From the UHGV virus genome UHGV-0050635: a stretch of DNA of 10,490 bases. One strand, 5' to 3'. Shown here piece by piece: positions 1-10,453 of the stretch. Position 1 is the stretch's first letter. Every line of letters starts with the position of its first letter. Under the pieces are notes generated by a model. It searched no databases, was not told where the DNA came from, and saw only the letters and a program-made list of their open reading frames with translations. The position numbers and the translations under genes were made by a program. The DNA is from a virus.

Positions 1-611
1 TTTTCAAGGATCGAAACTTCTGGGTTTTCGTCATATTTATTGTGGGGACGTGGTCTTTCTATAACATTTTTGATCAACAACTTTTTCCTGTCTTTTATGC
101 AGGTTTATTCGAATCACACGATGTAGGAACGCGCCTGTATGGTTATCTCAACTCATTCCAGGTGGTACTCGAAGCGCTGTGCATGGCGATTATTCCTTTC
201 TTTGTGAATCGGGTAGGGCCAAAAAATGCATTACTTATCGGAGTTGTGATTATGGCGTTGCGTATCCTTTCCTGCGCGCTGTTCGTTAACCCCTGGATTA
301 TTTCATTAGTGAAGTTGTTACATGCCATTGAGGTTCCACTTTGTGTCATATCCGTCTTCAAATACAGCGTGGCAAACTTTGATAAGCGCCTGTCGTCGAC
401 GATCTTTCTGATTGGTTTTCAAATTGCCAGTTCGCTTGGGATTGTGCTGCTTTCAACGCCGACTGGGATACTCTTTGACCACGCAGGCTACCAGACAGTT
501 TTCTTCGCAATTTCGGGTATTGTCTGCCTGATGTTGCTATTTGGCATTTTCTTCTTGAGTAAAAAACGCGAGCAAATAGTTATGGAAACGCCTGTACCTT
601 CAGCAATATAG
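1..611 (+). CDS. MFS transporter, LacY/oligosaccharide:H+ symporter family, C-terminal fragment (5' end lies outside the window; frame is open from nt 3, stop TAG 609-611)
   Basis: Reading frame is open from the window edge to 611. Translation aligns by eye with the LacY C-terminal half (GTR.YGY...NR.G.KNALL...KYS/ITS.F..R.S.TI.L motifs) and contains multiple hydrophobic helices. Probable host flank gene. Confidence 0.8.
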   Translation, partial: FKDRNFWVFVIFIVGTWSFYNIFDQQLFPVFYAGLFESHDVGTRLYGYLNSFQVVLEALCMAIIPFFVNRVGPKNALLIGVVIMALRILSCALFVNPWIISLVKLLHAIEVPLCVISVFKYSVANFDKRLSSTIFLIGFQIASSLGIVLLSTPTGILFDHAGYQTVFFAISGIVCLMLLFGIFFLSKKREQIVMETPVPSAI

Positions 612-622
612 ACGTAAACTTT

Positions 623-662
623 TTCCGGTTGTTGTCGATAGCTCTATATCCCTCAACCGGAA
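623..662 (+). terminator. Inverted repeat just downstream of the transporter stop (ttccggttg ... caaccggaa, 9-bp stem, ~22-nt loop); weak terminator or recombination-site candidate
   Basis: Perfect 9-bp inverted repeat seen in sequence at 623-631 / 654-662. No strong U-tract follows, so terminator function is uncertain. Confidence 0.3.
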
Positions 663-1140
663 AATAATAATAGTAAAATGCTTAGCCCTGCTAATAATCG
701 CCTAATCCAAACGCCTCATTCATGTTCTGGTACAGTCGCTCAAATGTACTTCAGATGCGCGGTTCGCTGATTTCCAGGACATTGTCGTCATTCAGTGACC
801 TGTCCCGTGTATCACGGTCCTGCGAATTCATCAAGGAATGCATTGCGGAGTGAAGTATCGAGTCACGCCATATTTCGCTATCAGGATTCTGTGTGATGGT
901 TACATCGCCCGGCCCAGGGCTGTTTAGTCATCAGCGCTTTCTGACAGTGCTGAGATTTCAACCTGTTGCAGTAAAAATGAGTAGATATAAGGCAAGTGTG
1001 CTGCCAAACCCATCTTTTACGGGGTGAAGGTAGATTTCGTTTGAAGGGTATCTGGTGTCCCCTGCAGACATCTACTTGGCGCGGCAGGGGATTGATTGGA
1101 ATGATGTTTTTTAGATGTGAAAAATATTTTACCCGCTATT

Positions 1141-1341
1141 TTACCCATTGGCGCGGCTTAAGAGCTTATTTTTGAATTCACAATGGTCACGATATAACCA
1201 TCTTGCTCGTCCGTGGATAACTTTGGCTTTTGGCAGGTCGCCGGACTTAATCCGGTCGTAGATGAAGGTTTTACCGAAGCCAGTATCGGCCATGATGAAT
1301 TTCAAATCAACCAGTGAATCAGGCTGTAGTTCGTGTTGCAT
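1141..1341 (-). CDS. AlpA/Xis-family small DNA-binding protein (putative excisionase or prophage regulatory protein)
   Basis: 66-aa ORF with ATG at 1341 and a GGAGA motif 8 nt upstream. The translation LVDLKFIMADTGFGKTFIYDRIKSGDLPKAKVIHGRARW matches the AlpA/phage-excisionase HTH signature (TG.S.STIY ... G.FP.P.K.G.RA..W). Confidence 0.7.
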   Translation of the reverse strand: MQHELQPDSLVDLKFIMADTGFGKTFIYDRIKSGDLPKAKVIHGRARWLYRDHCEFKNKLLSRANG

Positions 1342-1383
1342 GAGTGCTATCTCCGAATAGGGAATCGAACCTGCAAATCAGGT

Positions 1384-1407
1384 AATAAAAAAACCGCATT
1401 GATGCGG
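1384..1407 (-). terminator. Rho-independent terminator on the - strand between the upstream 114-aa gene and the xis-like gene
   Basis: On the - strand, hairpin ccgca-ttga-tgcgg is followed by TTTTTTTTATT. Confidence 0.6.
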
Positions 1408-1435
1408 CGATGGTAGGTCTGGATATCTTGATAAA

Positions 1436-1461
1436 TGAAAATGCCTCATCGAGTGTGAGGC
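1436..1461 (-). terminator. Terminator-like hairpin immediately after the stop of the 1465..1809 gene (- strand)
   Basis: Stem gcctca/tgaggc with a 7-nt loop; on the - strand it is followed by ATTTTCATTTA. Confidence 0.4.
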
Positions 1462-1464
1462 GGG

Positions 1465-1809
1465 TTAGTCCTTGCGTAGCTCGCTAATTCTTCTGTAAGT
1501 CTCTGGTGCTTTGTTTCCGTGTATCTTCATTTCAGACTTCAACAGAGCAACGAGTGAATCCCATTCGTTGAGGATTCCTTTGAATGCCGGAACGCGCTTT
1601 GCAACCTTGTCGAATGAATCTCTGATTTCTGGAATCTGCTCAACAAGTGCAACGCATCGTCGGAAATCGGCTGCATCATGTGGAGCGCCGAAGTGATGAC
1701 CATAGATATTCTTTTTCAGTCCACATGCGATTGAGGCAAGAGTTGCGCTACTGATGCCGACATCGCCAGTCGATTGCCATTTCAAAACCTTCATAGCCAA
1801 ATCTGACAT
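1465..1809 (-). CDS. Hypothetical phage early protein (114 aa)
   Basis: ORF with ATG at 1809 and GGAGA 6 nt upstream. Same orientation as the left operon. No family recognised. Confidence 0.7.
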   Translation of the reverse strand: MSDLAMKVLKWQSTGDVGISSATLASIACGLKKNIYGHHFGAPHDAADFRRCVALVEQIPEIRDSFDKVAKRVPAFKGILNEWDSLVALLKSEMKIHGNKAPETYRRISELRKD

Positions 1810-1822
1810 TTCTTGTCTCCAT

Positions 1823-1879
1823 AAAACAAAACTCGCCGTAGCGAGTTCAGATAAAAGAAAACCCGCACTCGGCGGGTTC
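1823..1879 (-). terminator. Two tandem intrinsic-terminator hairpins on the - strand (1861-1879 aacccgc-actcg-gcgggtt plus T-tract; 1831-1846 actcgc-cgta-gcgagt plus T-tract)
   Basis: On the - strand each GC-rich stem-loop is followed directly by a T-rich run (TTCTTTTATC and TTTTGTTTTAT). They sit downstream of the 2158..2400 transcription unit and just upstream of the 1809 start codon. Confidence 0.5.
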
Positions 1880-1898
1880 GCATTCGTTCAAATTGCGT

Positions 1899-2180
1899 TT
1901 ACTTCTTGGCGTTCTGTTCATCCATATCGATATACCATGGGTTGCTTCCCTTGGGCATGTTTAACGACTGCTCGCGATAGTATCTGATGCGCTCCATGAA
2001 ATACTCGCGTGAGTGCTCAGGTTGCTCTCATGATACCTGCTCAGTGATAACAGGTATGTTAAGGCGCTCTCTGTACTCCATGCCTGATGCTGCAAGGTCA
2101 ACGTTTACCTTGTTCTGTTTTTCTTTCGATTTCTCGGCGATGTTATGCCTGACATTGTCAACCCGCCTCCTTCTGAACAT
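1899..2180 (-). pseudogene. Small ORF interrupted by a single in-frame TGA (50-aa N-terminal ORF 2028..2180 plus 42 further in-frame codons to 1899); possible nonsense pseudogene or a 50-aa basic protein
   Basis: Manual translation of the - strand: MFRRRRVDNVRHNIAEKSKEKQNKVNVDLAASGMEYRERLNIPVITEQVS-TGA-EQPEHSREYFMERIRYYREQSLNMPKGSNPWYIDMDEQNAKK. No convincing RBS. Overlaps the 3' end of the 2158..2400 gene by 23 nt. Confidence 0.25.
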
Positions 2181-2400
2181 AACGGTTATAAATCAGTCCC
2201 TGAGGGCCATAAGGAAGCGGGATGTGCAACTCCTCTGGTTCAGAAACTATCCATTCTCCGGCCATCTCCGCTGGAGAGGTAATGATAAGTTGTTTGCTAA
2301 TAAAAGGACCACTCCTCTCAACAACAAGCTTACCATCTTCATTAATAAAAGCTTGGATGTCAGGTGTGCTTCCACACTTGGTGATGCAGCGTTTGAACAT
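2158..2400 (-). CDS. Hypothetical small protein (80 aa, MFKRCITKCGSTPDIQAFINEDGKLVVERSG...); moron-like gene with its own promoter. Alternative start at 2415
   Basis: ORF on the - strand with ATG at 2400 (upstream in-frame ATG at 2415). Immediately downstream of an extended -10 promoter element inside an AT-rich intergenic island. Confidence 0.55.
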   Translation of the reverse strand: MFKRCITKCGSTPDIQAFINEDGKLVVERSGPFISKQLIITSPAEMAGEWIVSEPEELHIPLPYGPQGLIYNRYVQKEAG

Positions 2401-2424
2401 TTTGTGTCCCCCCATTTTATGTAC

Positions 2425-2445
2425 GGGGTAATTATAACACATTGA
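2425..2445 (-). promoter_or_regulatory. Candidate sigma70 extended -10 promoter (TGTTATAAT on the - strand, forward 2431-2439) driving the 2158..2400 gene
   Basis: Perfect TGnTATAAT read on the - strand, in a ~75% AT intergenic region (2443-2526). No good -35, as is typical of extended -10 promoters. Confidence 0.4.
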
Positions 2446-2526
2446 AATATAGTAATATTTGACGTAGATTTCTTTTGATCTATAAGCGATTTTTTAATGC
2501 TTTTAAGTTATAAATACTTGTTTTCA

Positions 2527-3198
2527 TCACCCATCTTGCTGCGGTGCTACTATTGAAAAGTGCTCACACCCTTTAGCCCAAATAGTTTTGATAGTTGTCC
2601 AACTGACTGGAACCTTGATTTCGATTCTCCCGCTACAGTCACAAGTTTCGCAATCATCATCACCAAAGCATTCCGGGCAGCTTATAAACGTAGTTTCTGA
2701 AAATTCACCGGATAGCACACCCTTAGCGCCGTTCTCGGCTGTTAGTCTCTTCGGCACCATGACCCAACCATCCGGAATTACCGGAGAGTTGCCGGGTTCT
2801 TTAATGTGCAAGCGAGGCTCACCATCTTTTGGCTCAGGCCACTGGCGCTCCATGTTGATCTTCAATTTATCTTCCATAGCAGCGGTAATTTCAGCATCGC
2901 TGATGCCAGCACGGCGCTGTGAATCCCACAACAGAAACTGCATATCAGCCCACTCGCTAAGATCGTCTGGTTCGGCTGCGGCTTCCAGTGCCTCTTTTGA
3001 GAGGTGTTTCAGTGGACCAATGGGGCCAACGCAGCCAAATGTGGAGTCAGACCATTTGGCATGCTCGTGGCGAATCTGTTCGCGTTCCAGTGATGCCAGT
3101 GCAATTCGTGCCAGTTCCATTTGTTCGCCACGAGTAAGCCCGTTTTCAAGCGGATTTTTAATGAATAATTCGATACGTTCTTTGGTAATAGTGGTCAT
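2527..3198 (-). CDS. Putative MazG-like (all-alpha) dNTP/NTP pyrophosphohydrolase domain protein with a Cys-rich C-terminal domain (223 aa)
   Basis: ATG at 3198 with AAGGTGA upstream. The N-terminal region (EQMELARIALASLEREQIRHEHAKWSDSTFG ... DMQFLLWDSQRRAGISDAEITAAMEDKL) resembles the phage dATP/dGTP pyrophosphohydrolase/MazG-like fold. The C-terminus carries CPECFGDDDCETCDC. Family assignment is from recalled motifs, not a search. Confidence 0.5.
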   Translation of the reverse strand: MTTITKERIELFIKNPLENGLTRGEQMELARIALASLEREQIRHEHAKWSDSTFGCVGPIGPLKHLSKEALEAAAEPDDLSEWADMQFLLWDSQRRAGISDAEITAAMEDKLKINMERQWPEPKDGEPRLHIKEPGNSPVIPDGWVMVPKRLTAENGAKGVLSGEFSETTFISCPECFGDDDCETCDCSGRIEIKVPVSWTTIKTIWAKGCEHFSIVAPQQDG

Positions 3199-3200
3199 AG

Positions 3201-3392
3201 CTATTTCACCTTAATCTCAACATTTCGCAGCTTTAGCTCTACTGGCAGGTCTGACTTTCCTGTTAATGCTAATGCGAGATTTTCTGGGGTAATGAGAGCA
3301 GTTATTGCTTTCCCCATTGCCAGACGAATAATTATTCGTATTTCGCGATCGTCACATGCTCCTGGTCGAACGATTGATATTTGTCCGTCCAT
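3201..3392 (-). CDS. Hypothetical small protein (63 aa, MDGQISIVRPGACDDREIRIIIRLAMGK...)
   Basis: ATG at 3392 preceded by AAGGAG at 6-nt spacing. Its start lies 1 nt after the stop of the upstream gene. The longer track ORF (to 3434) begins with TTG and lacks an RBS. Confidence 0.55.
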   Translation of the reverse strand: MDGQISIVRPGACDDREIRIIIRLAMGKAITALITPENLALALTGKSDLPVELKLRNVEIKVK

Positions 3393-3393
3393 C

Positions 3394-3822
3394 TCACTCT
3401 CCTTTGATGCGAATGCCAGCGGCGCGGGAATCATTCCATCGCTTTACTTCTTCACGAATTACGTCAATGCATTCTTTCGAATCCATTAGGTAATCTTCAT
3501 CAAAAAGACGTTCCTGTTCGTTTTCTATCGCAACAATGATTGCTTCAACTAACTTTTGTGCCTGAGAACCACTTTCTAACTCTGCAATGCGCTTCTCTGC
3601 GGCTTCCAGCTCATCCAGCAGCGCCCGAACTACATCAGCGGTTTTCTGGCACTGGTCAACAATGCTAACGTCACAACCAGTATCGAAACCGTCCTCAGTT
3701 TCAAAGCGGGTCTCTACAGAGTCGCCGTCGATATCAGATGGTTCGAACCCGGCAATGTTTTCCAGAATGCCGATTATGCTTTCTGCGCTATGACGTAATG
3801 CGCGTTTATCGATGTTGCTCAT
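3394..3822 (-). CDS. Hypothetical acidic coiled-coil protein (142 aa)
   Basis: ATG at 3822 with AAGGAG 7 nt upstream. ATGA start/stop overlap with the upstream gene indicates translational coupling. Confidence 0.75.
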   Translation of the reverse strand: MSNIDKRALRHSAESIIGILENIAGFEPSDIDGDSVETRFETEDGFDTGCDVSIVDQCQKTADVVRALLDELEAAEKRIAELESGSQAQKLVEAIIVAIENEQERLFDEDYLMDSKECIDVIREEVKRWNDSRAAGIRIKGE

Positions 3823-6592: not shown

Positions 6593-7216
6593 CTATGCGG
6601 CCTCGGAAGGAAGTCCAATCATCTTATTCAAATCTTCTACCCGTAAAGCAGGAAGTGCTGTACTTGCTTTATCTGCTTCTTTTGGTAGCAATTCTTTGCT
6701 TTCAGGCCAAACCTCAATAAGTCGCTTAACTGTTGTGACTGAGTTCAAAGCAGCCCATACATTTGATTCGATATCCTTTTTCTTGGCTTCAAGTTTTTGT
6801 TGCAATGCGCAGATTTCATCAAACCTTTTTGTTATTTCGTGTTCTGCGCTAAACATGCATTTATCTTTTATCGGAGTAGGGAGAAATATATCTTCGCCGT
6901 TGCCGTCTTTCCCATATGAATGCCATCCAACCCTTCTGCCAGATACAGTCAGATAAATTGAAGTAGAACGAAAATCGTATGAGTAAAATGAACATCCCAT
7001 CTTTCCAAGTTCTTCACTTATAGCTACCAACTTGGATGATAACTGATCCACTTCCTCAGTTTTCTTTTTACCGCCAAACGCAATAACTCTGGCGTCAAGT
7101 GCAAGCTGGTTCTTTAACTTTGTTACTTCTTCAAGCTCAGTGAAAACCCCAGACTTAATTAAAGCGTTACGAGCGATTTCCTCTTTCATTCTCGTAGTTA
7201 AGCGGATTGATGACAT
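6593..7216 (-). CDS. Hypothetical protein (207 aa) in the accessory hotspot between cIII and ral
   Basis: ATG at 7216 with GAGGA 6 nt upstream (the track ORF starts at an upstream TTG). No predicted transmembrane character and no recognisable family. A hairpin overlaps the stop codon (6585-6602). Confidence 0.7.
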   Translation of the reverse strand: MSSIRLTTRMKEEIARNALIKSGVFTELEEVTKLKNQLALDARVIAFGGKKKTEEVDQLSSKLVAISEELGKMGCSFYSYDFRSTSIYLTVSGRRVGWHSYGKDGNGEDIFLPTPIKDKCMFSAEHEITKRFDEICALQQKLEAKKKDIESNVWAALNSVTTVKRLIEVWPESKELLPKEADKASTALPALRVEDLNKMIGLPSEAA

Positions 7217-7252
7217 ATTAATTCCTCTCAAATAAGAAAATAAAGGCCACCA

Positions 7253-7453
7253 TCAGGCAGCCTTGTTGTTCAGTTCACCAAGTTCTCTGGCAATCATTGC
7301 CGTCGTTCGTATTGCCCATTTATCGACATATTTCCCATCTTCCATTACAGGAAACATTTCTTCAGGCTTAACCATGCATTCCGATTGCAGCTTGCATCCA
7401 TTGCATCGTTTGAATTGTCCACACCATTGATTCTTATCAATAGTCGTAGTCAT
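7253..7453 (-). CDS. ral: Ral-like restriction alleviation protein (66 aa)
   Basis: Translation MTTTIDKNQWCGQFKRCNGCKLQSECMVKPEEMFPVMEDGKYVDKWAIRTTAMIARELG... matches my recollection of lambda Ral nearly residue for residue, and the gene sits at the lambda ral position between N and cIII. Confidence 0.7.
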   Translation of the reverse strand: MTTTIDKNQWCGQFKRCNGCKLQSECMVKPEEMFPVMEDGKYVDKWAIRTTAMIARELGELNNKAA

Positions 7454-7523
7454 ACGGATAGTCCTGGTATTGTTCCATCACATCTTGAGGATGCTCTTCG
7501 AACTCTTCAAATTCTTCTTCCAT
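7437..7523 (-). CDS. Candidate micro-ORF encoding a 28-aa highly acidic/aromatic peptide (MEEEFEEFEEHPQDVMEQYQDYPYDYDY); not in the supplied ORF track
   Basis: ATG at 7523 preceded by GAGGTGA at 4-nt spacing. The stop TGA at 7437-7439 overlaps the ral start region by 17 nt. Found by manual translation. Confidence 0.35.
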   Translation of the reverse strand: MEEEFEEFEEHPQDVMEQYQDYPYDYDY

Positions 7524-7578
7524 ATCTCACCTCAAATAAGTGGTTTGCTGCGAAAAAGTAAAACAATGATATTCACTT

Positions 7579-7845
7579 CTATTTGTCATCGTGTAAGTGA
7601 CGCAGGTTATTAACTCGCGGCCAGTAATATTTTGGCTTGGCACGAGATCCGGGTCTTGGACCTACGCAAACTATATAGCTCTCTTCTTTCCTCGGAAGGC
7701 CAGGTGCATCTAGCAGACGGCCTAGTTCGAATTTTTTTACGTTGACACCAGGAGGAATCACCTCGACGATAAACCCGATTTTTACCTTCGTTACACCGTT
7801 TGATGAGCTTGACCATTTAACTTCATCGTTCAATTTGAACTTCAT
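7579..7845 (-). CDS. Hypothetical protein (88 aa; alternative ATG at 7848)
   Basis: Tandem ATG codons at 7848 and 7845 with GAGG just upstream. Located directly after the N-remnant stop, i.e. in the position of the first gene downstream of N. Confidence 0.65.
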   Translation of the reverse strand: MKFKLNDEVKWSSSSNGVTKVKIGFIVEVIPPGVNVKKFELGRLLDAPGLPRKEESYIVCVGPRPGSRAKPKYYWPRVNNLRHLHDDK

Positions 7846-7853
7846 CATTAACC

Positions 7854-7955
7854 TCAATCGTAATAAGCTGGAATTGATTTTCCGCGTTGTTTCTGGCGGC
7901 CTGAGCAGGTCACACCCATTTCACTGCGTGGCTTGCTGTAATAAATTCGGTTAGT
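7854..7955 (-). pseudogene. Remnant of the 3' end of a lambda-like N gene (33 in-frame codons: TNRIYYSKPRSEMGVTCSGRQKQRGKSIPAYYD) downstream of nun
   Basis: Manual translation of the - strand between the nun terminator and the 88-aa gene gives a peptide closely resembling the lambda N C-terminal region (..YSKPGERGITCSGRQKIKGKSIP..). There is no RBS and it begins after an in-frame stop. Confidence 0.5.
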
Positions 7956-7960
7956 TCAGA

Positions 7961-7985
7961 CAATAAAAAACCCACCGAAGTGGGC
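7961..7985 (-). terminator. Rho-independent terminator on the - strand immediately after nun
   Basis: On the - strand, stem cccac-ttcg-gtggg is followed by TTTTTTATTG. Confidence 0.65.
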
Positions 7986-8314
7986 TATGACCATTTTTTA
8001 TTTGGATTTCGTTGGTGAGCGTGATTAACAACTCTGTGCATTACATCCTCATATTTTTCATCTTCAATTTTTTCGACATCGCGAGGAAATGGTGTTGCTA
8101 ATGCTTTGTCAACTTTATCCATTGGGTCTTCATTAATCTTATATTCAGGACCGTCATCTATAGCATTAAATCCAGGTGTTACACCGTTTTTTAATGCATA
8201 TGCTATCCTCTTTTCCCATCTCGCTATTCTCCTCCTGTCTCGAGATGTAAGACCTCTATCAGATACTTTTCTGTTTTGTCCGCGGTCAGGATTAACATAA
8301 ATAGTCTTTTTCAC
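7985..8314 (-). CDS. nun: Nun-like transcription termination / phage-exclusion protein (HK022 Nun type), about 109 aa
   Basis: Contains the arginine-rich motif DRGLTSRDRRRIARWEKRIAYALK and the C-terminus ...NPNKKWS with the penultimate Trp characteristic of HK022 Nun. Start is uncertain: GTG 8314, ATG 8317 or ATG 8323. Confidence 0.8.
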   Translation of the reverse strand: MKKTIYVNPDRGQNRKVSDRGLTSRDRRRIARWEKRIAYALKNGVTPGFNAIDDGPEYKINEDPMDKVDKALATPFPRDVEKIEDEKYEDVMHRVVNHAHQRNPNKKWS

Positions 8315-8325
8315 CATAAGCATAC

Positions 8326-8631
8326 TCAATAAGCACCGTACGGTAGTTTACTGTACAATTTTATTTTTTGGACTGCATGTATTTTGTTTCCTAATGGGTT
8401 TGAATCTTTGTAATAAATACTTCTATTTTTTCGAACGACTTCTTCTTTCTTCTTGCAGCAAAGGATTCCTAGTGATGCTGCTTTGTCTGCTTTGACGCAA
8501 CCAGAGAGCTTTAGCGCAATTTTTCGCGCCAGTGCTTCATTACTGCGTCGCTCGGCAATAAGTTCTGCTCTGCGAGCTTTGTAGCGGCTTTTTGCCGTAC
8601 CTTTGGATTCTTTCCAGACAATGGTTACCAT
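8326..8631 (-). CDS. N: N-like transcription antiterminator, phage-21-type arginine-rich motif (101 aa)
   Basis: ATG at 8631 with AAGGAG 6 nt upstream. The N-terminal GTAKSRYKARRAELIAERR is the phage 21 N ARM as I recall it. The C-terminal region resembles N-family tails. A cognate nutL lies upstream. Confidence 0.8.
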   Translation of the reverse strand: MVTIVWKESKGTAKSRYKARRAELIAERRSNEALARKIALKLSGCVKADKAASLGILCCKKKEEVVRKNRSIYYKDSNPLGNKIHAVQKIKLYSKLPYGAY

Positions 8632-8741
8632 GATGGTCTCCTTTAAGTGGCTTTGGCGCATGACGCGTCGAGGTGCTTATCTTCTCGATCGCTGTCTTGC
8701 AGCTGCAATTCGCGCCATCCCCAAAACCACTCAAGTTCTGG

Positions 8742-8781
8742 TCTCAACGGTTAGGTTGAGAGTCCGTCGATGTTAAAGAGC
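8742..8781 (-). promoter_or_regulatory. nutL: boxA (GCTCTTTAACA, forward 8771-8781) and boxB hairpin (TCTCAAC-CTAACC-GTTGAGA, forward 8742-8761)
   Basis: Read on the - strand between pL and N. BoxA matches the lambdoid boxA consensus family. BoxB is a 7-bp stem with a CUAACC loop, and a near-identical boxA and loop occur at nutR. Confidence 0.6.
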
Positions 8782-8827
8782 CTGCCAATCTGTTCCGTTT
8801 GGCTTCCAGCGTCCTGCTGATGGCTTA

Positions 8828-8881
8828 AATTTAAGACTTCTTAATTTATTGGTCAAGTGCATTTTTGAAGAAAACTTAATT
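8828..8881 (-). promoter_or_regulatory. OL/pL: two P22-type operators (8829-8846 ATTTAAGACTTCTTAATT; 8864-8881 TTTGAAGAAAACTTAATT) overlapping a leftward promoter (-35 TTGACC forward 8851-8856, -10 TAAATT forward 8828-8833)
   Basis: Operators fit the P22 c2 consensus AnTnAAG-N4-CTTnAnT. The promoter hexamers on the - strand are separated by a 17-bp spacer. Confidence 0.6.
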
Positions 8882-8920
8882 TTATGGGCGTGAATTTAGT
8901 TTGTCTTTGATTTTTAACGG

Positions 8921-8948
8921 GAAATAAAAAAGGGGCGAAAGCCCCTTA
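8921..8948 (-). terminator. Rho-independent terminator of the repressor transcript (- strand)
   Basis: On the - strand, stem aggggc-tttc-gcccct is followed by TTTTTTATTTCC. It overlaps the c2 stop codon. Confidence 0.7.
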
Positions 8949-9596
8949 AGGAAGGTTTGCTAGCTTGGCATCAACGACAACGCCAATGATTTTACAGTTC
9001 CCATTGATTTCAATCATTGGGTATTGTGGATTGAGTGGTTTCAGGAATTTTCTACCGGCATCAATAACTAACTTTTTGAATGTCGCCTCGTTTTCTCCTT
9101 CAAGTTTGGCGACTACCAACTTTCCATTACGTGGTTCGACTTCTGGGTCGACGAGAATAATCATCCCCTCAGGAATACTCAGTCCTGCCGGGGCAGTCAT
9201 TGAATCGCCTTTAACGTCGAGCCAAAAAGAGTCTTCAGAACAATCTACCGTTGTGTCGTACCAGTTATCTATTGCACGCCTATGATATGGCTCTACAGCT
9301 TCCATCCAACATCCTGCGCTTACCCAACTAATTAGAGGATACGAACCTCTTGGATCATGCCTGCTGTGATAGGCAATGTTTGAAAGACTATCCTCTCCTT
9401 TCAACAGGTAATCAGGGGAGCACTGCAAAGCCTTGGCTAAGGCCAATAGGTTTTCGCCATTGGGCTCAGTTTCAGATCGCTCCCATTGGGAAATAGCAAC
9501 ATTAGACACGCCAACCATCTTGCCAAGGGCAGCCTGCCTAATCTTGAGTTCTTTTCTGCGAGCGCGAATACGCTCACCCATCAGTTGTGTATTCAT
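8946..9596 (-). CDS. c2: Phage repressor, P22 C2 type (LexA/S24-like autocleaving repressor with N-terminal HTH), 216 aa
   Basis: Translation MNTQLMGERIRARRKELKIRQAALGKMVGVSNVAISQWERSETEPNG...IIGVVVDAKLANLP is nearly identical to my recollection of P22 C2. P22-type operators flank it on both sides. Confidence 0.9.
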   Translation of the reverse strand: MNTQLMGERIRARRKELKIRQAALGKMVGVSNVAISQWERSETEPNGENLLALAKALQCSPDYLLKGEDSLSNIAYHSRHDPRGSYPLISWVSAGCWMEAVEPYHRRAIDNWYDTTVDCSEDSFWLDVKGDSMTAPAGLSIPEGMIILVDPEVEPRNGKLVVAKLEGENEATFKKLVIDAGRKFLKPLNPQYPMIEINGNCKIIGVVVDAKLANLP

Positions 9597-9662
9597 AGTT
9601 AAGACATCTTAAATAAACTTGACTTAAGATTCCTTTGGTGGATAATTTAAGTGTTCTTTAAT
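9597..9662. promoter_or_regulatory. OR region: three P22-type operators (OR3 9597-9614, OR2 9622-9639, OR1 9645-9662) with pR (-35 TTGACT 9619-9624, -10 GATAAT 9641-9646) and divergent pRM
   Basis: AGTTAAGACATCTTAAAT and ATTTAAGTGTTCTTTAAT are perfect matches to AnTnAAG-N4-CTTnAnT; ACTTAAGATTCCTTTGGT has one mismatch. The region lies between divergent c2 and cro. Confidence 0.7.
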
Positions 9663-9676
9663 TTCGGAGCGAGTCT

Positions 9677-9862
9677 ATGTACAAAAAAGATGTTATTGAC
9701 CACTTCGGAACCCAGCGTGCTGTTGCTAAAGCACTAGGCATTAGCGATGCAGCAGTCTCTCAGTGGAAAGAAGTTATCCCAGAGAAAGACGCCTATCGAT
9801 TGGAAATCGTTACAGCTGGCGCCCTGAAGTATCAAGAAAGTGCTTACCGCCAAGCGGCATAA
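9677..9862 (+). CDS. cro: Cro repressor, P22 type (61 aa)
   Basis: Translation MYKKDVIDHFGTQRAVAKALGISDAAVSQWKEVIPEKDAYRLEIVTAGALKYQ... matches recalled P22 Cro. GGAG RBS upstream. Confidence 0.9.
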   Translation: MYKKDVIDHFGTQRAVAKALGISDAAVSQWKEVIPEKDAYRLEIVTAGALKYQESAYRQAA

Positions 9863-9870
9863 GCAAATTG

Positions 9871-9910
9871 CTCTTTAACAGTTCTGGCCTTTCACCTCTA
9901 ACCGGGTGAG
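9871..9910 (+). promoter_or_regulatory. nutR: boxA (GCTCTTTAACA 9871-9881) and boxB hairpin (TCACC-TCTAACCG-GGTGA 9893-9910)
   Basis: Same boxA as nutL and a boxB loop sharing CUAACC with the nutL boxB. Located between cro and c1, as in lambda. Confidence 0.55.
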
Positions 9911-9959
9911 CAAACATCAGCGGCAAATCCATTGGGTGTGCCGCTATAACTCAATATCA

Positions 9960-10000
9960 ATATAGGAAAATTAACAAATGGCACAAGCAAGCTACAGCAA
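9960..10000 (-). promoter_or_regulatory. Candidate pRE (cII/C1-activated establishment promoter): TTGC-N6-TTGC on the - strand (forward 9987-10000)
   Basis: The - strand reads TTGCTGTAGCTTGC overlapping the 5' end of c1, the classical arrangement of the cII binding site at pRE. Confidence 0.5.
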
Positions 10001-10274
10001 GCCAACACAGCGAGAAATTGATCGCGCTGAAACTGATTTACTCATCAACCTGTCAACGCTTACCCATCGCGGTCTGGCAAAGATGATTGGCTGTCATGAA
10101 TCGAAGATAAGCAGAACGGACTGGAGATTTATTGCTTCGGTCTTGTGTGCTTTCGGAATGGCATCAGACATCAGTCCGATTAGCAGGGCTTTTAAGTATG
10201 CGCTTGATGAAATCACAAAGAAAAAATCCCCGGCCGCCACCGAGGATTTTAAGCAAATTGATATGCAATTCTGA
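9978..10274 (+). CDS. c1: cII-like transcriptional activator (P22 C1 type), 98 aa
   Basis: HTH region plus C-terminus [18 protein letters not shown] paralleling lambda cII (..KKRPAATERSEQIQMEF). Position after cro and nutR. Confidence 0.85.
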
Positions 10275-10306
10275 GGGAATTACTGGATCAATCCACAGGA
10301 GTAATT

Positions 10307-10453
10307 ATGACAAAACAACTCAGTCCTTACCAGGACAAAATTCACAAACACATACTACGTGATCGCTTCCTGTCCAGCTTCAAGCAGCCTGGTCGATTTC
10401 GGGCTGAGTTGGAAAAGGTGAAGCTGATGCAGAAGGAGAAAGGTCATGAGTAA
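10307..10453 (+). CDS. Small hypothetical protein (48 aa), P22 orf48-like, between c1 and the replication gene
   Basis: ATG at 10307 with AGGAG 6 nt upstream. Manual translation [48 protein letters not shown]. The stop overlaps the next start. Confidence 0.55.

What the first reader, a model, noticed from the sequence alone, without database searches (positions are those of the whole stretch)
7985..8631. Tandem N antiterminator (phage-21 specificity) and Nun terminator (HK022 type) in one prophage
Nun is classically described in HK022, which lacks N and uses cis-acting put RNAs; Nun there blocks superinfecting lambda by binding lambda nut boxB. Here an intact phage-21-type N gene with cognate nutL and nutR sits immediately upstream of nun. 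The two ARM proteins must discriminate between boxB variants, since the resident boxB loop (CUAACC) differs from lambda boxB. This arrangement combines self-antitermination with exclusion of lambda-type competitors.
Basis: partly seen in the sequence, partly recalled or inferred. Interest (0 to 1): 0.65.

Follow-up and report, generated by a model that had tools for sequence, protein, structure and literature searches.

The report
Phage-21 N gene carrying nun cassette
An E. coli prophage with the phage 21 immunity region carries, inserted in the end of its own N antiterminator gene, the HK022-type nun gene that should block rival lambda-type phages; the gene pair is real but already annotated in sequenced phages and is the usual home of nun.

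Summary
On the minus strand, 8326-8631 encodes a 101-aa N protein. Its RNA-binding motif is identical to the solved phage 21 N peptide. 7985-8314 encodes a protein 108/109 identical to HK022 Nun. nutL and nutR match phage 21 exactly, and the window has no lambda-type boxB.

It is inferred, not demonstrated.

The arrangement is not new. Phages mEp235, mEpX1 and PA28 are annotated in GenBank with N next to Nun. Of 5426 complete E. coli genomes, 220 carry nun. 212 of them carry this N-nun module and one carries the HK022 putL-nun form, so HK022 is the exception.

New detail:
- nun sits in a 462-bp promoter-gene-terminator cassette inside the 3' end of N.
- The cassette is flanked by a 10-bp direct repeat.
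- The displaced original N end still lies downstream (7854-7946).
- HK022's annotated nun promoter lies in a leftover piece of an N gene.

Side finding outside the window: about 29 clusters of Nun-like proteins share Nun's C-terminal arrest motif. Their N-terminal motifs copy different N proteins (lambda, 21, P22 types). They often sit in tandem next to a resident N. I found no paper on this.

The parts
8946..9596 (-). cI repressor (216 aa, HTH + S24 peptidase), part of an imm21-type immunity region
   Evidence: Pfam HTH_3 and Peptidase_S24. Window 8409-10314 is 97.6% identical to phage 21.
8828..8856 (-). pL promoter (-35 TTGACC, 17-bp spacer, -10 TAAATT)
   Evidence: Promoter scan and sequence. 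It lies in the stretch 97% identical to the phage 21 pL/oL region.
8742..8781 (-). nutL: boxA GCTCTTTA (8774-8781) and boxB TCTCAACCTAACCGTTGAGA (8742-8761)
   Evidence: Identical to the annotated phage 21 boxA-L and nutL. Folds as a 7-bp stem with a CUAACC loop.
8326..8631 (-). N antiterminator, 101 aa, mosaic. Residues 1-58 are phage 21 type (ARM at 8-29). The last ~40 residues are the 'YKDSNPLGNKIHAVQK' allele.
   Evidence: PDB 1NYB 22/22. PHROG 271, E=3.3e-30. Comparison with phage 21 N. The C-terminal allele also occurs with other ARM types.
8350..8378 (-). Pnun, the nun promoter, inside the N 3' coding region (-35 ATGCAG at 8373-8378, -10 TACAGT at 8350-8355, 17-bp spacer)
   Evidence: Sequence identical to the 'nun gene promoter' -35 and -10 annotated in phage O276, MH547045. 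Both hexamers are kept in PA28 and in the 65%-identical locus L010.
7985..8314 (-). nun, 109 aa from a GTG start (in-frame ATGs also at 8317 and 8323). ARM at residues 20-44; C-terminal arrest motif VVNHAHQRNPNKKWS.
   Evidence: PDB 6ALG 108/109 and 1HJI 26/26. PHROG 5632, E=1.8e-68. dN/dS 0.03-0.15 against HK022, mEp235 and PA28.
7961..7986 (-). Intrinsic terminator after nun (AGCCCACTTCGGTGGGTT followed by TTTTTATT)
   Evidence: Terminator scan. Fold -10.3 kcal/mol, z=-2.9. The HK022 copy differs by a compensatory pair (CCCAC/GTGGG versus CCCGC/GCGGG).
8409..8418 (-). Upstream copy of the direct repeat ATTTATTACA (codons I-Y-Y of N)
7937..7946 (-). Downstream copy of the direct repeat ATTTATTACA. 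462 bp lie between the two copies.
7854..7946 (-). Displaced original 3' end of N: 30 codons plus stop, IYYSKPRSEMGVTCSGRQKQRGKSIPAYYD*
   Evidence: 87% identical in DNA to the 3' end of phage 21 N. The translation equals the C-terminus of the natural N allele P0103. Present in mEp235, mEpX1 and PA28 as well.
9870..9909 (+). nutR: boxA GCTCTTTA (9870-9877) and boxB TCACCTCTAACCGGGTGA (9892-9909)
   Evidence: Identical to the annotated phage 21 boxA-R and nutR. Folds as a hairpin with a CUAACC loop.
9677..9862 (+). cro (61 aa)
   Evidence: Pfam P22_Cro, E=5.7e-28. Lies in the imm21-identical block.

Best explanation
The window is the early-left control region of a lambdoid E. coli prophage with phage 21 immunity. 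A promoter-gene-terminator cassette for nun (a 'moron', a self-contained extra gene unit) has been spliced into the 3' end of its N gene.

In the lysogen (inferred):
- cI shuts off pL, so N is not made.
- nun is transcribed from its own weak promoter, Pnun, which lies inside the N 3' coding sequence. Transcription stops at the hairpin terminator directly after nun.
- Nun's arginine-rich motif binds the boxB hairpin of lambda-type nut RNA on the transcripts of a superinfecting phage.
- Nun's C-terminal segment (H93 to W108) then jams RNA polymerase translocation, so lambda-type phages are excluded.
- The resident boxB (CUAACC hexaloop) is not a Nun target.

On induction (inferred):
- pL fires and N is made.
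- N binds its own phage 21-type nutL and nutR.
- The modified polymerase reads through the nun terminator into orf92, ral and the genes beyond.

What is shown and what is inferred:
- Shown: the genes, the nut sites, the promoter and terminator sequences, and their identity to characterised elements.
- Inferred from HK022 and phage 21 work: promoter activity, exclusion of lambda, lack of cross-reaction, and function of the mosaic N.
For: - Nun is 108/109 identical to the solved protein, with the ARM and arrest motif intact.
- The N ARM is identical to the phage 21 N peptide.
- nutL and nutR are identical to phage 21, and no lambda boxB is present. Both boxB hairpins fold as expected.
- Pnun is identical to the promoter annotated in O276/HK022.
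- A strong terminator follows nun, and it shows a compensatory change relative to HK022.
- Window 8409-10314 is 97.6% identical to the phage 21 immunity region.
- The cassette is flanked by a 10-bp repeat and followed by an intact displaced N 3' end.
- nun is under purifying selection in N-bearing phages (dN/dS 0.03-0.15).
- The module is present in 212 complete E. coli genomes and in mEp235, mEpX1, Kapi1 and PA28.
- Published work says Nun acts specifically on lambda nut transcripts and that nun mutations do not affect HK022 growth or lysogeny (PMC5386594, PMC4496710).
Against: - No expression or exclusion data exist for this prophage or, as far as I could find, for mEp235-type lysogens.
- Pnun is a poor match to the sigma-70 consensus. 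My generic scan did not pick it up, so its position rests on a GenBank annotation. I could not read the primary paper (King et al. 2000).
- Conservation of the promoter hexamers is confounded by their lying in coding sequence.
- That Nun does not recognise the phage 21 boxB is recalled from Robert et al. 1987, not tested here.
- The phage 21 ARM combined with this C-terminal allele of N has not been tested for function.
- N scores below Pfam's curated cut-off (18.4 versus 27.9 bits).
Confidence: 0.85

Rival explanations
1. nun is a silent passenger. It is an intact-looking relic that is not expressed, or not active, in this N-bearing background, and the pairing has no functional meaning.
For: - No direct expression data exist.
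- Pnun is weak and was not found by the consensus scan.
- In PA28 the nun terminator stem has decayed, and GenBank annotates only a 45-aa fragment there.
Against: - dN/dS is 0.03-0.15 across lineages that differ at up to 20-30% of synonymous sites.
- The ARM and arrest motif are invariant.
- The PA28 reading frame is in fact intact over 109 codons.
- 212 genomes keep the module.
- The promoter hexamers and the terminator architecture are kept even in 65%-identical homologues.
Confidence: 0.07
2. Nun acts on its own phage. It binds the resident nut RNA weakly, or acts untethered. Either way it serves as a brake on leaky pL/pR transcription or as a timer against N after induction, rather than (or besides) excluding rivals.
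For: - nun is co-transcribed with N from pL after induction, so Nun levels should rise.
- Nun arrests non-nut elongation complexes at about 300 nM in vitro, and its overproduction is toxic (PMC5386594 and PMC4496710).
- N and Nun are always adjacent.
Against: - The Nun ARM shows no significant similarity to the phage 21 N ARM (1759 of 2000 shuffles score as well).
- The resident boxB differs from lambda boxB in loop size and sequence.
- In HK022, nun mutations change neither lytic growth nor lysogeny (PMC4496710).
- In related loci the Nun-like ARMs always differ from the resident N ARM. That pattern fits targeting of non-self.
Confidence: 0.06
3. The mosaic N is non-functional, and the prophage is a defective remnant in which only nun matters.
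For: - The C-terminal third of N is not the phage 21 allele.
- The Pfam N_peptide score is below the curated cut-off.
- The window shows only part of the prophage.
Against: - The ORF is intact, has a good Shine-Dalgarno sequence (AAGGAG), and belongs to a 229-member cluster.
- The same C-terminal allele is joined to at least four different ARM types in intact N genes.
- The viable isolated phages mEp235, mEpX1 and Kapi1 carry the same mosaic N.
Confidence: 0.02

Closest known systems
Phage HK022 nun locus (pL - putL - nun - terminator)
   Same: - Nun protein is 108/109 identical.
- The 114 bp upstream of nun, with the annotated nun promoter, are the same.
- The terminator has the same architecture.
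- DNA is 96.8% identical over window 7968-8443.
   Different: - HK022 has no N gene and no nut sites. It uses the cis-acting putL RNA.
- Upstream of nun, HK022 keeps only a 38-codon leftover of an N 3' end (97% identical to the C-terminus of this N).
- In this window that stretch is the live end of an intact N gene.
- The HK022 form was found in 1 of 5426 complete E. coli genomes, against 212 for the form seen here.
Phages mEp235, mEpX1, Kapi1, PDP110P1, PA28 and Stx1a-converting phages (N followed by Nun)
   Same: - The same module: phage 21-type nutL, mosaic N, nun, terminator and displaced N 3' end.
- mEp235 is 99.2% identical over window 7890-10453.
- mEp235, mEpX1 and PA28 are annotated in GenBank/RefSeq as 'antitermination protein N' next to 'transcription termination factor Nun' or 'Nun-like'.
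   Different: - Only the flanking genes differ (orf92, ral and Nmad5 here).
- The PA28 lineage is 90% identical, has a 1-nt deletion at the end of N and a decayed terminator.
- RefSeq calls both genes 'hypothetical protein' or 'regulator' in E. coli chromosomes.
Phage 21 immunity and N-nut region
   Same: - cI, cro, cII, pL, nutL, nutR and the first ~58 codons of N are 97-100% identical.
- The ral region is also 97.5% identical.
   Different: Phage 21 has no nun. Its N runs straight into ral. This window has the nun cassette and orf92 in between, and a different N C-terminus.
Prophage exclusion morons in the pL operon (lambda/P22 sieB, lambda rexAB)
   Same: Each is a small exclusion gene inside or beside the immunity region. 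Each is expressed from its own promoter while the prophage is repressed and is read through during lytic growth. (The comparison rests on established knowledge. A sieB gene lies next to the Nun-like genes in Hafnia phage Pocitis76.)
   Different: The mechanism differs. Nun arrests RNA polymerase on a rival's nut-bearing transcripts. It does not act by abortive infection.

Membership tests
HK022 Nun transcription arrest factor | N-terminal arginine-rich motif (residues ~20-44) that binds lambda boxB RNA | tested here: met
   26/26 identical to the Nun peptide solved in complex with lambda boxB (PDB 1HJI).
HK022 Nun transcription arrest factor | C-terminal RNA polymerase-arresting segment with H93, H98, H100, K106, K107 and the penultimate W108 | tested here: met
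   Residues 11-109 are identical to PDB 6ALG chain N. The motif is invariant across the family alignment.
HK022 Nun transcription arrest factor | Own constitutive promoter, and a terminator that allows expression from a repressed prophage | tested here: met
   The sequence is identical to the annotated nun promoter of O276, and the terminator is present. Promoter activity itself is not testable here.
HK022 Nun transcription arrest factor | The lysogen excludes lambda (nut-lambda phages) but not phages with other nut specificities | not testable with these tools
   This needs plating of lambda, lambda imm434 and lambda imm21 on the lysogen with and without nun.
Lambdoid N antiterminator, phage 21 specificity | N-terminal ARM of phage 21 N | tested here: met
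   22/22 identical to PDB 1NYB. Residues 1-58 are almost identical to phage 21 N.
Lambdoid N antiterminator, phage 21 specificity | Cognate nutL and nutR (boxA plus a boxB hairpin with a CUAACC loop), downstream of pL and of cro | tested here: met
   Identical to the annotated phage 21 sites. The folds are confirmed.
Lambdoid N antiterminator, phage 21 specificity | C-terminal RNA polymerase-binding region of the phage 21 N type | tested here: not met
   The C-terminal ~40 aa are the 'YKDSNPLGNKIHAVQKIKLYS' allele, not phage 21's 'SKPRSEMGVTCVGRQKIKLGS'. The allele is a normal N C-terminus found with other ARMs. The protein is therefore an N with phage 21 RNA specificity, not phage 21 N throughout.
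Lambdoid N antiterminator, phage 21 specificity | Match to curated N family models | tested here: inconclusive
   Pfam N_peptide scores 18.4 bits, below the 27.9 cut-off. There is no NCBIfam hit. PHROG 271 'anti-termination protein N-like' scores E=3.3e-30.
Moron (autonomous promoter-gene-terminator insertion in a phage operon) | Absent from an otherwise collinear relative, bounded by its own promoter and terminator, with visible insertion scars | tested here: met
   - Phage 21 lacks it.
- Pnun and the terminator bound the gene.
- A 10-bp direct repeat and a displaced N 3' end flank it.

The most novel reading that the evidence does not exclude
nun is one member of a wider, apparently undescribed family of nut-targeted arrest factors.

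The family:
- All members share Nun's C-terminal polymerase-jamming motif (DAMxxVVNHAHQRxPxKKW).
- Their N-terminal arginine-rich motifs are interchangeable and copy the N proteins of rival phages (lambda, 21, P22, HK620-like and other types).
- They travel as terminator-ended cassettes that insert into or beside N genes, singly or in tandem arrays.

The reading: N-plus-Nun is the general way a lambdoid prophage combines its own antitermination with targeted sabotage of other nut specificities.

Consequence for this window: the prophage would carry an anti-lambda warhead, and would itself be a predicted target of the variants that carry a phage 21-like ARM.
Probability: 0.5. Interest if true: 0.75.

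Novelty: already known. Interest (0 to 1): 0.35.

Why it matters
Taken alone, the locus is a textbook pair of elements that is already annotated side by side in sequenced phages, so it adds little.

Two points are still useful:
1. Textbooks present Nun as the peculiarity of an N-less phage. In E. coli genomes the reverse holds. nun almost always rides inside a phage 21-type N gene, and HK022 looks like a derivative that lost most of N. This reframes Nun as a self/non-self device built on ARM-boxB specificity.
2. The related Nun-like proteins with swapped ARMs suggest a testable arms race over nut-site specificity. They would also offer natural RNA-guided polymerase-arrest factors with different RNA addresses.

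Neither Pfam, NCBIfam nor PADLOC has a Nun model. Both genes are labelled 'hypothetical protein' or 'regulator' in RefSeq chromosomes.

Tried and rejected
- Pfam, NCBIfam and PADLOC gave no hit for Nun. Only PHROGs has a Nun family.
- I could not read King et al. 2000 on the nun promoters, Chattopadhyay et al. 1995 or Uc-Mass et al. 2008. The promoter position therefore rests on the O276 GenBank annotation. Nun's inactivity at phage 21 nut sites rests on my memory of Robert et al. 1987.
- Seven literature searches found no paper on N-Nun coexistence, on exclusion by mEp235 or Kapi1 lysogens, or on diversification of the Nun family. Absence from this open-access library does not prove that nothing has been published.
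- I tested whether Nun and N are homologous along their whole length, which would suggest that nun arose by duplication of N. A profile-profile comparison aligned only the N-terminal ARM region, at 49% probability. The short C-terminal resemblance (HAVQK versus HAHQR) was not supported. I left this open and do not claim it.
- I considered that the missing integrase next to the excisionase gene marked a defective prophage. I rejected this: the element sits at the csc locus (cscB/cscK; the neighbouring argW tRNA site is recalled from K-12, not tested here) with a TorI-type excisionase. My recollection is that in KplE1-type prophages the integrase lies at the other end, outside this window; that was not checked here.
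- I looked for lambda-type boxB or boxA in locus L008, which carries a lambda-type N behind Nun genes. I found none, and that N remains unexplained.
Full report
**1. What is in the window**

The window is part of an E. coli chromosome. Its left end (42-611) is the sucrose-locus MFS transporter gene, followed by a TorI-type excisionase gene at 1141-1341. The rest is the early-left arm and immunity region of a lambdoid prophage, read mostly on the minus strand.

Read in the leftward direction, that is, in the direction of pL transcription on the minus strand, the features are:
- cII 9978-10274 (+), nutR (boxA 9870-9877, boxB 9892-9909) and cro 9677-9862 (+)
- cI 8946-9596 (-) with its terminator
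- pL at 8828-8856
- nutL (boxA 8774-8781, boxB 8742-8761)
- N 8326-8631
- nun 7985-8314
- a terminator at 7961-7986
- a displaced N 3' end at 7854-7946
- orf92 (7579-7848, PHROG 11941, function unknown)
- ral 7253-7453
- an Nmad5-family gene 6593-7231
- recombination genes further left

**2. Checking the observation**

The 109-aa product of 7985-8314 is 108/109 identical to the Nun chain of the Nun-RNA polymerase cryo-EM structure 6ALG (E=3.8e-71). It is 26/26 identical to the Nun ARM peptide solved with lambda boxB, 1HJI. The only change from HK022 is S10R. The ARM, the three histidines, K106, K107 and W108 are all present.

The 101-aa product of 8326-8631 has residues 8-29 identical to the phage 21 N peptide of 1NYB. 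It matches PHROG 271 'N-like' at E=3.3e-30.

nutL and nutR are base-for-base the sites annotated in the phage 21 genome OL657228. Both boxB sequences fold into hairpins with a CUAACC loop. No lambda-type boxB is present on either strand.

**3.

The window from 8409 to 10314 is 97.6% identical to phage 21. This covers N codons 1 to ~74, nutL, pL, cI, cro, nutR and cII. The ral region 7237-7551 is 97.5% identical. The prophage therefore carries the imm21 immunity region.

HK022 matches only 7968-8443, at 96.8%. That match does not stop at nun. It runs 114 bp upstream, into what is here the last 38 codons of N.

Consequently N is a mosaic. The first 58 residues are phage 21 N. The C-terminal ~40 residues (KKKEEVVRKNRSIYYKDSNPLGNKIHAVQKIKLYSKLPYGAY) are another allele. 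This allele is a genuine N C-terminus:
- It is found fused to at least four ARM classes in intact N genes.
- Its more distant relatives are the C-termini of N proteins of P22-like Salmonella phages.

**4. The nun promoter lies inside N**

The GenBank record of the HK022/lambda hybrid O276 (MH547045) annotates a 'nun gene promoter' -35 (ATGCAG) and -10 (TACAGT). The identical sequence, with a 17-bp spacer, lies at window 8373-8378 and 8350-8355, inside the N reading frame.

HK022 and the window differ by a single base between this promoter and the nun start. That base creates the TGA stop codon of N in the window (TTGAG versus TTGGG).

The hexamers are retained in the 90%-identical PA28 lineage. 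They are also retained in a metagenomic locus whose Nun is only 65% identical and whose N has a different ARM (L010). Because the stretch is also coding, this conservation is only weak evidence for promoter function.

**5. nun is a cassette inserted in N**

Directly after the nun terminator the sequence resumes with ATTTATTACAGCAAGCCACGCAGTGAAATGGG. This is the 3' part of a phage 21-type N gene (87% identical to phage 21).

The stretch 7854-7946 reads IYYSKPRSEMGVTCSGRQKQRGKSIPAYYD-stop. This is exactly the C-terminus of a natural N allele, P0103.

The ten bases ATTTATTACA (codons I-Y-Y) occur at 8409-8418 and again at 7937-7946, with 462 bp between them. Those 462 bp contain the alternative N C-terminus with Pnun, then nun, then the terminator. 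Removing them in silico restores a 101-aa N.

The same scar is present in mEp235, mEpX1 and PA28, so the event is old and shared.

The nun terminator differs from the HK022 copy by a compensatory base-pair change. Terminators of the same design follow distant Nun-like genes.

Conversely, HK022 (and O276 and HK75) keeps upstream of nun a 38-codon N fossil that is 97% identical to this N C-terminus. The simplest reading is that the N-nun arrangement is ancestral, and that the HK022 lineage replaced nutL and most of N by putL. This is an inference. I could not check whether the older HK022 papers already noted it.

**6. How common is the arrangement, and is it known?**

Among phage records, nun occurs in 30:
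- HK022, its hybrid O276 and HK75 have no N.
- mEp235, mEpX1, Kapi1, PDP110P1, PA28, 06-3462 and eleven Stx1a-converting phages have the N-nun module.
- mEp235 (JQ182731) is annotated 'antitermination protein N' next to 'transcription termination factor Nun'. RefSeq does the same for mEpX1 and PA28.

Among 5426 complete E. coli genomes:
- 220 carry nun.
- 212 carry at least 80% of the 1051-bp pL-nutL-N-nun module.
- One carries the HK022-type putL-nun upstream region.

In RefSeq chromosomes both genes are labelled 'hypothetical protein', 'regulator' or 'transcriptional regulator'. Pfam, NCBIfam and PADLOC have no Nun model.

Seven literature searches found no paper that discusses N and Nun in one phage. 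The pairing is thus known at the level of database annotation, and is common, but seems undiscussed in the literature I could search.

**7. Mechanism**

Published work establishes four points for HK022 Nun (PMC5386594 and PMC4496710):
- It excludes lambda by binding lambda nut boxB RNA through its ARM.
- It blocks polymerase translocation with its C-terminal segment.
- It is present at roughly 100 nM in lysogens.
- It is dispensable for HK022 growth and lysogeny.

Given 99% identity, I infer the same activity here.

In the repressed prophage only Pnun drives nun, and the terminator confines that transcript. After induction, N made from pL recognises its own nut sites. The modified polymerase reads through the nun terminator, which then acts as the first N-dependent barrier of the left operon.

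Discrimination between the two ARM proteins is plausible on sequence grounds. The Nun ARM has no significant similarity to the phage 21 N ARM (1759 of 2000 shuffles score as well), and only marginal similarity to the lambda N ARM (181 of 2000). The two boxB types differ in loop length and sequence. That Nun is inactive at phage 21 and P22 nut sites is my recollection of Robert et al. 1987 and was not verified here.

nun is under purifying selection in the N-bearing lineages (dN/dS 0.03-0.15). This argues against a dead passenger.

**8. Rival explanations**

I considered three rivals and rate each as unlikely:
- A silent relic (0.07).
- A self-directed brake or timer on the resident phage's own transcription (0.06).
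- A dead N (0.02).

The evidence for and against each, and what would refute each, is in the Rival explanations section.

**9. Side finding: a wider Nun-like family**

A search with Nun found 60-68% identical homologues in Citrobacter and in metagenomes.

Their loci show nun next to N genes or N fragments in several configurations:
- putL-like sequence, then nun, then a 45-aa N 3' remnant, in Citrobacter braakii (L007).
- cI, nutL, an N with a different ARM, then nun (L010).
- putL-like sequence, nun, a second 97-aa gene, a terminator, and then a lambda-type N (L008).

The 97-aa protein joins an N-terminus resembling the phage 21 N ARM to a Nun C-terminus (VNHAHQRRPDKKWS). The two N-termini are MVKITINPAKDNSKNRRYKERGELIAKRK and MVTIVWKESKGTAKSRYKARRAELIAERR. 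The protein has its own family in Klebsiella, Enterobacter and metagenomes.

A profile of both groups, searched against 1.84 billion representative proteins, returned 29 clusters. All share DAMxxVVNHAHQRxPxKKW at the C-terminus, but their N-termini differ widely.

Several N-termini match N ARM classes far better than chance (0 of 2000 shuffles in each case):
- P0159 against lambda-type N (23/40 identical).
- P0173 against the HK620-like N class (24/44 identical).
- P0021 against phage 21 N.
- P0162 against the N of L010.

PHROGs models agree. The N-terminal parts of P0159, P0173 and P0176 hit the N family (PHROG 271). Their C-terminal parts hit the Nun family (PHROG 5632).

A cultured phage shows the architecture plainly. 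Hafnia phage Pocitis76 (OL512804) has cI, nutL, N, a Nun-like gene with a lambda-type ARM, a Nun-like gene with a P22-type N-terminus, and then sieB. Both Nun-like genes are annotated only as 'transcriptional regulator'. A Logan contig (L014) repeats this order. L015/L016 show N, a Nun-like gene, then a second N-like fragment.

In each locus where a complete resident N sits next to the Nun-like gene(s) (L010, L014, L015/L016 and Pocitis76), the Nun-like ARM differs from the resident N ARM.

I read this as a family of nut-addressed arrest factors with swappable ARMs. That reading is an inference from sequence. I found no publication on it, but the library does not cover subscription journals.

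**10. Verdict**

The arrangement is already annotated in public phage genomes and is the normal context of nun, so the locus itself is ordinary.

The added value lies in three points: the insertion anatomy, the inversion of the 'HK022 is typical' view, and the wider Nun-like family, which deserves its own follow-up.

Noticed in passing
window 7854-7946 (-), with the repeat at 8409-8418 and 7937-7946: A complete displaced 3' end of an N gene (IYYSKPRSEMGVTCSGRQKQRGKSIPAYYD*) lies downstream of the nun terminator. A 10-bp direct repeat brackets the 462-bp nun cassette. In-silico excision restores a natural 101-aa N allele.
   Followed up: yes
L002 (HK022 AF069308) ~1851-1976; L004 (O276) 1157-1276: HK022 keeps a 38-codon fossil of an N 3' end upstream of nun, 97% identical to this window's N C-terminus. 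Its annotated nun promoter lies inside that fossil. This suggests HK022 descends from an N-nun phage that swapped nutL and most of N for putL.
   Followed up: partly
L008 2501-3117, L009 150-766; proteins P0021-P0034: A second Nun-like family (97 aa) has an N-terminus resembling the phage 21 N ARM and a Nun C-terminus. It is encoded directly after, and overlapping, a canonical Nun homologue. It may be an exclusion factor aimed at phage 21-type nut sites such as those of this window's prophage.
   Followed up: partly
proteins P0155-P0179; L014; L015/L016 3001-3279; L017 (Hafnia phage Pocitis76 OL512804) 2001-2680: About 29 clusters of Nun-like proteins share the motif DAMxxVVNHAHQRxPxKKW. Their N-termini mimic lambda, 21, P22, HK620-like and other N ARMs. 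They often sit in tandem, next to a resident N with a different ARM. Pocitis76 has two in a row, annotated only as 'transcriptional regulator'.
   Followed up: partly
L008 3617-3940: A lambda-type N gene (ARM MDAQARRRERRAEKQAEWKAAN) lies about 500 bp downstream of two Nun-like genes, in a phage that has a putL-like element. No lambda-type boxB or boxA was found in the 5.3 kb fetched. Whether this N is an orphan or is functional remains unexplained.
   Followed up: partly
L012 (PA28 NC_041935) 1578-2223: In the PA28 / Stx1a-phage lineage, a 1-nt deletion changes the last residues of N and the nun terminator stem is degraded. RefSeq annotates only a 45-aa 'Nun-like' fragment, although the 109-codon nun frame is intact.
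   Followed up: partly
window 7579-7848 (-): orf92 (89 aa from the ATG at 7848, with SD GAGG) starts right after the displaced N stop codon. It matches PHROG 11941 (function unknown) and has no hit in Pfam, NCBIfam or PADLOC. Phage 21 lacks it.
   Followed up: partly
window 6593-7231 (-) and 7253-7453 (-): An Nmad5-family gene ('nucleotide modification associated domain 5', E=3e-71) sits directly downstream of the antirestriction gene ral in the early-left operon.
   Followed up: no
window 42-611 (+), 1141-1341 (-): The prophage abuts the sucrose-utilisation locus (an MFS transporter, cscB-like). At this end it has a TorI-type excisionase and no adjacent integrase.
   Followed up: partly
window 7985-8631, compared with RefSeq E. 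coli chromosomes (e.g. L005, L006): PGAP labels nun and N as 'hypothetical protein', 'regulator' or 'transcriptional regulator'. Pfam, NCBIfam and PADLOC have no model for Nun, so this exclusion gene is invisible to standard annotation and to defence-system finders.
   Followed up: yes
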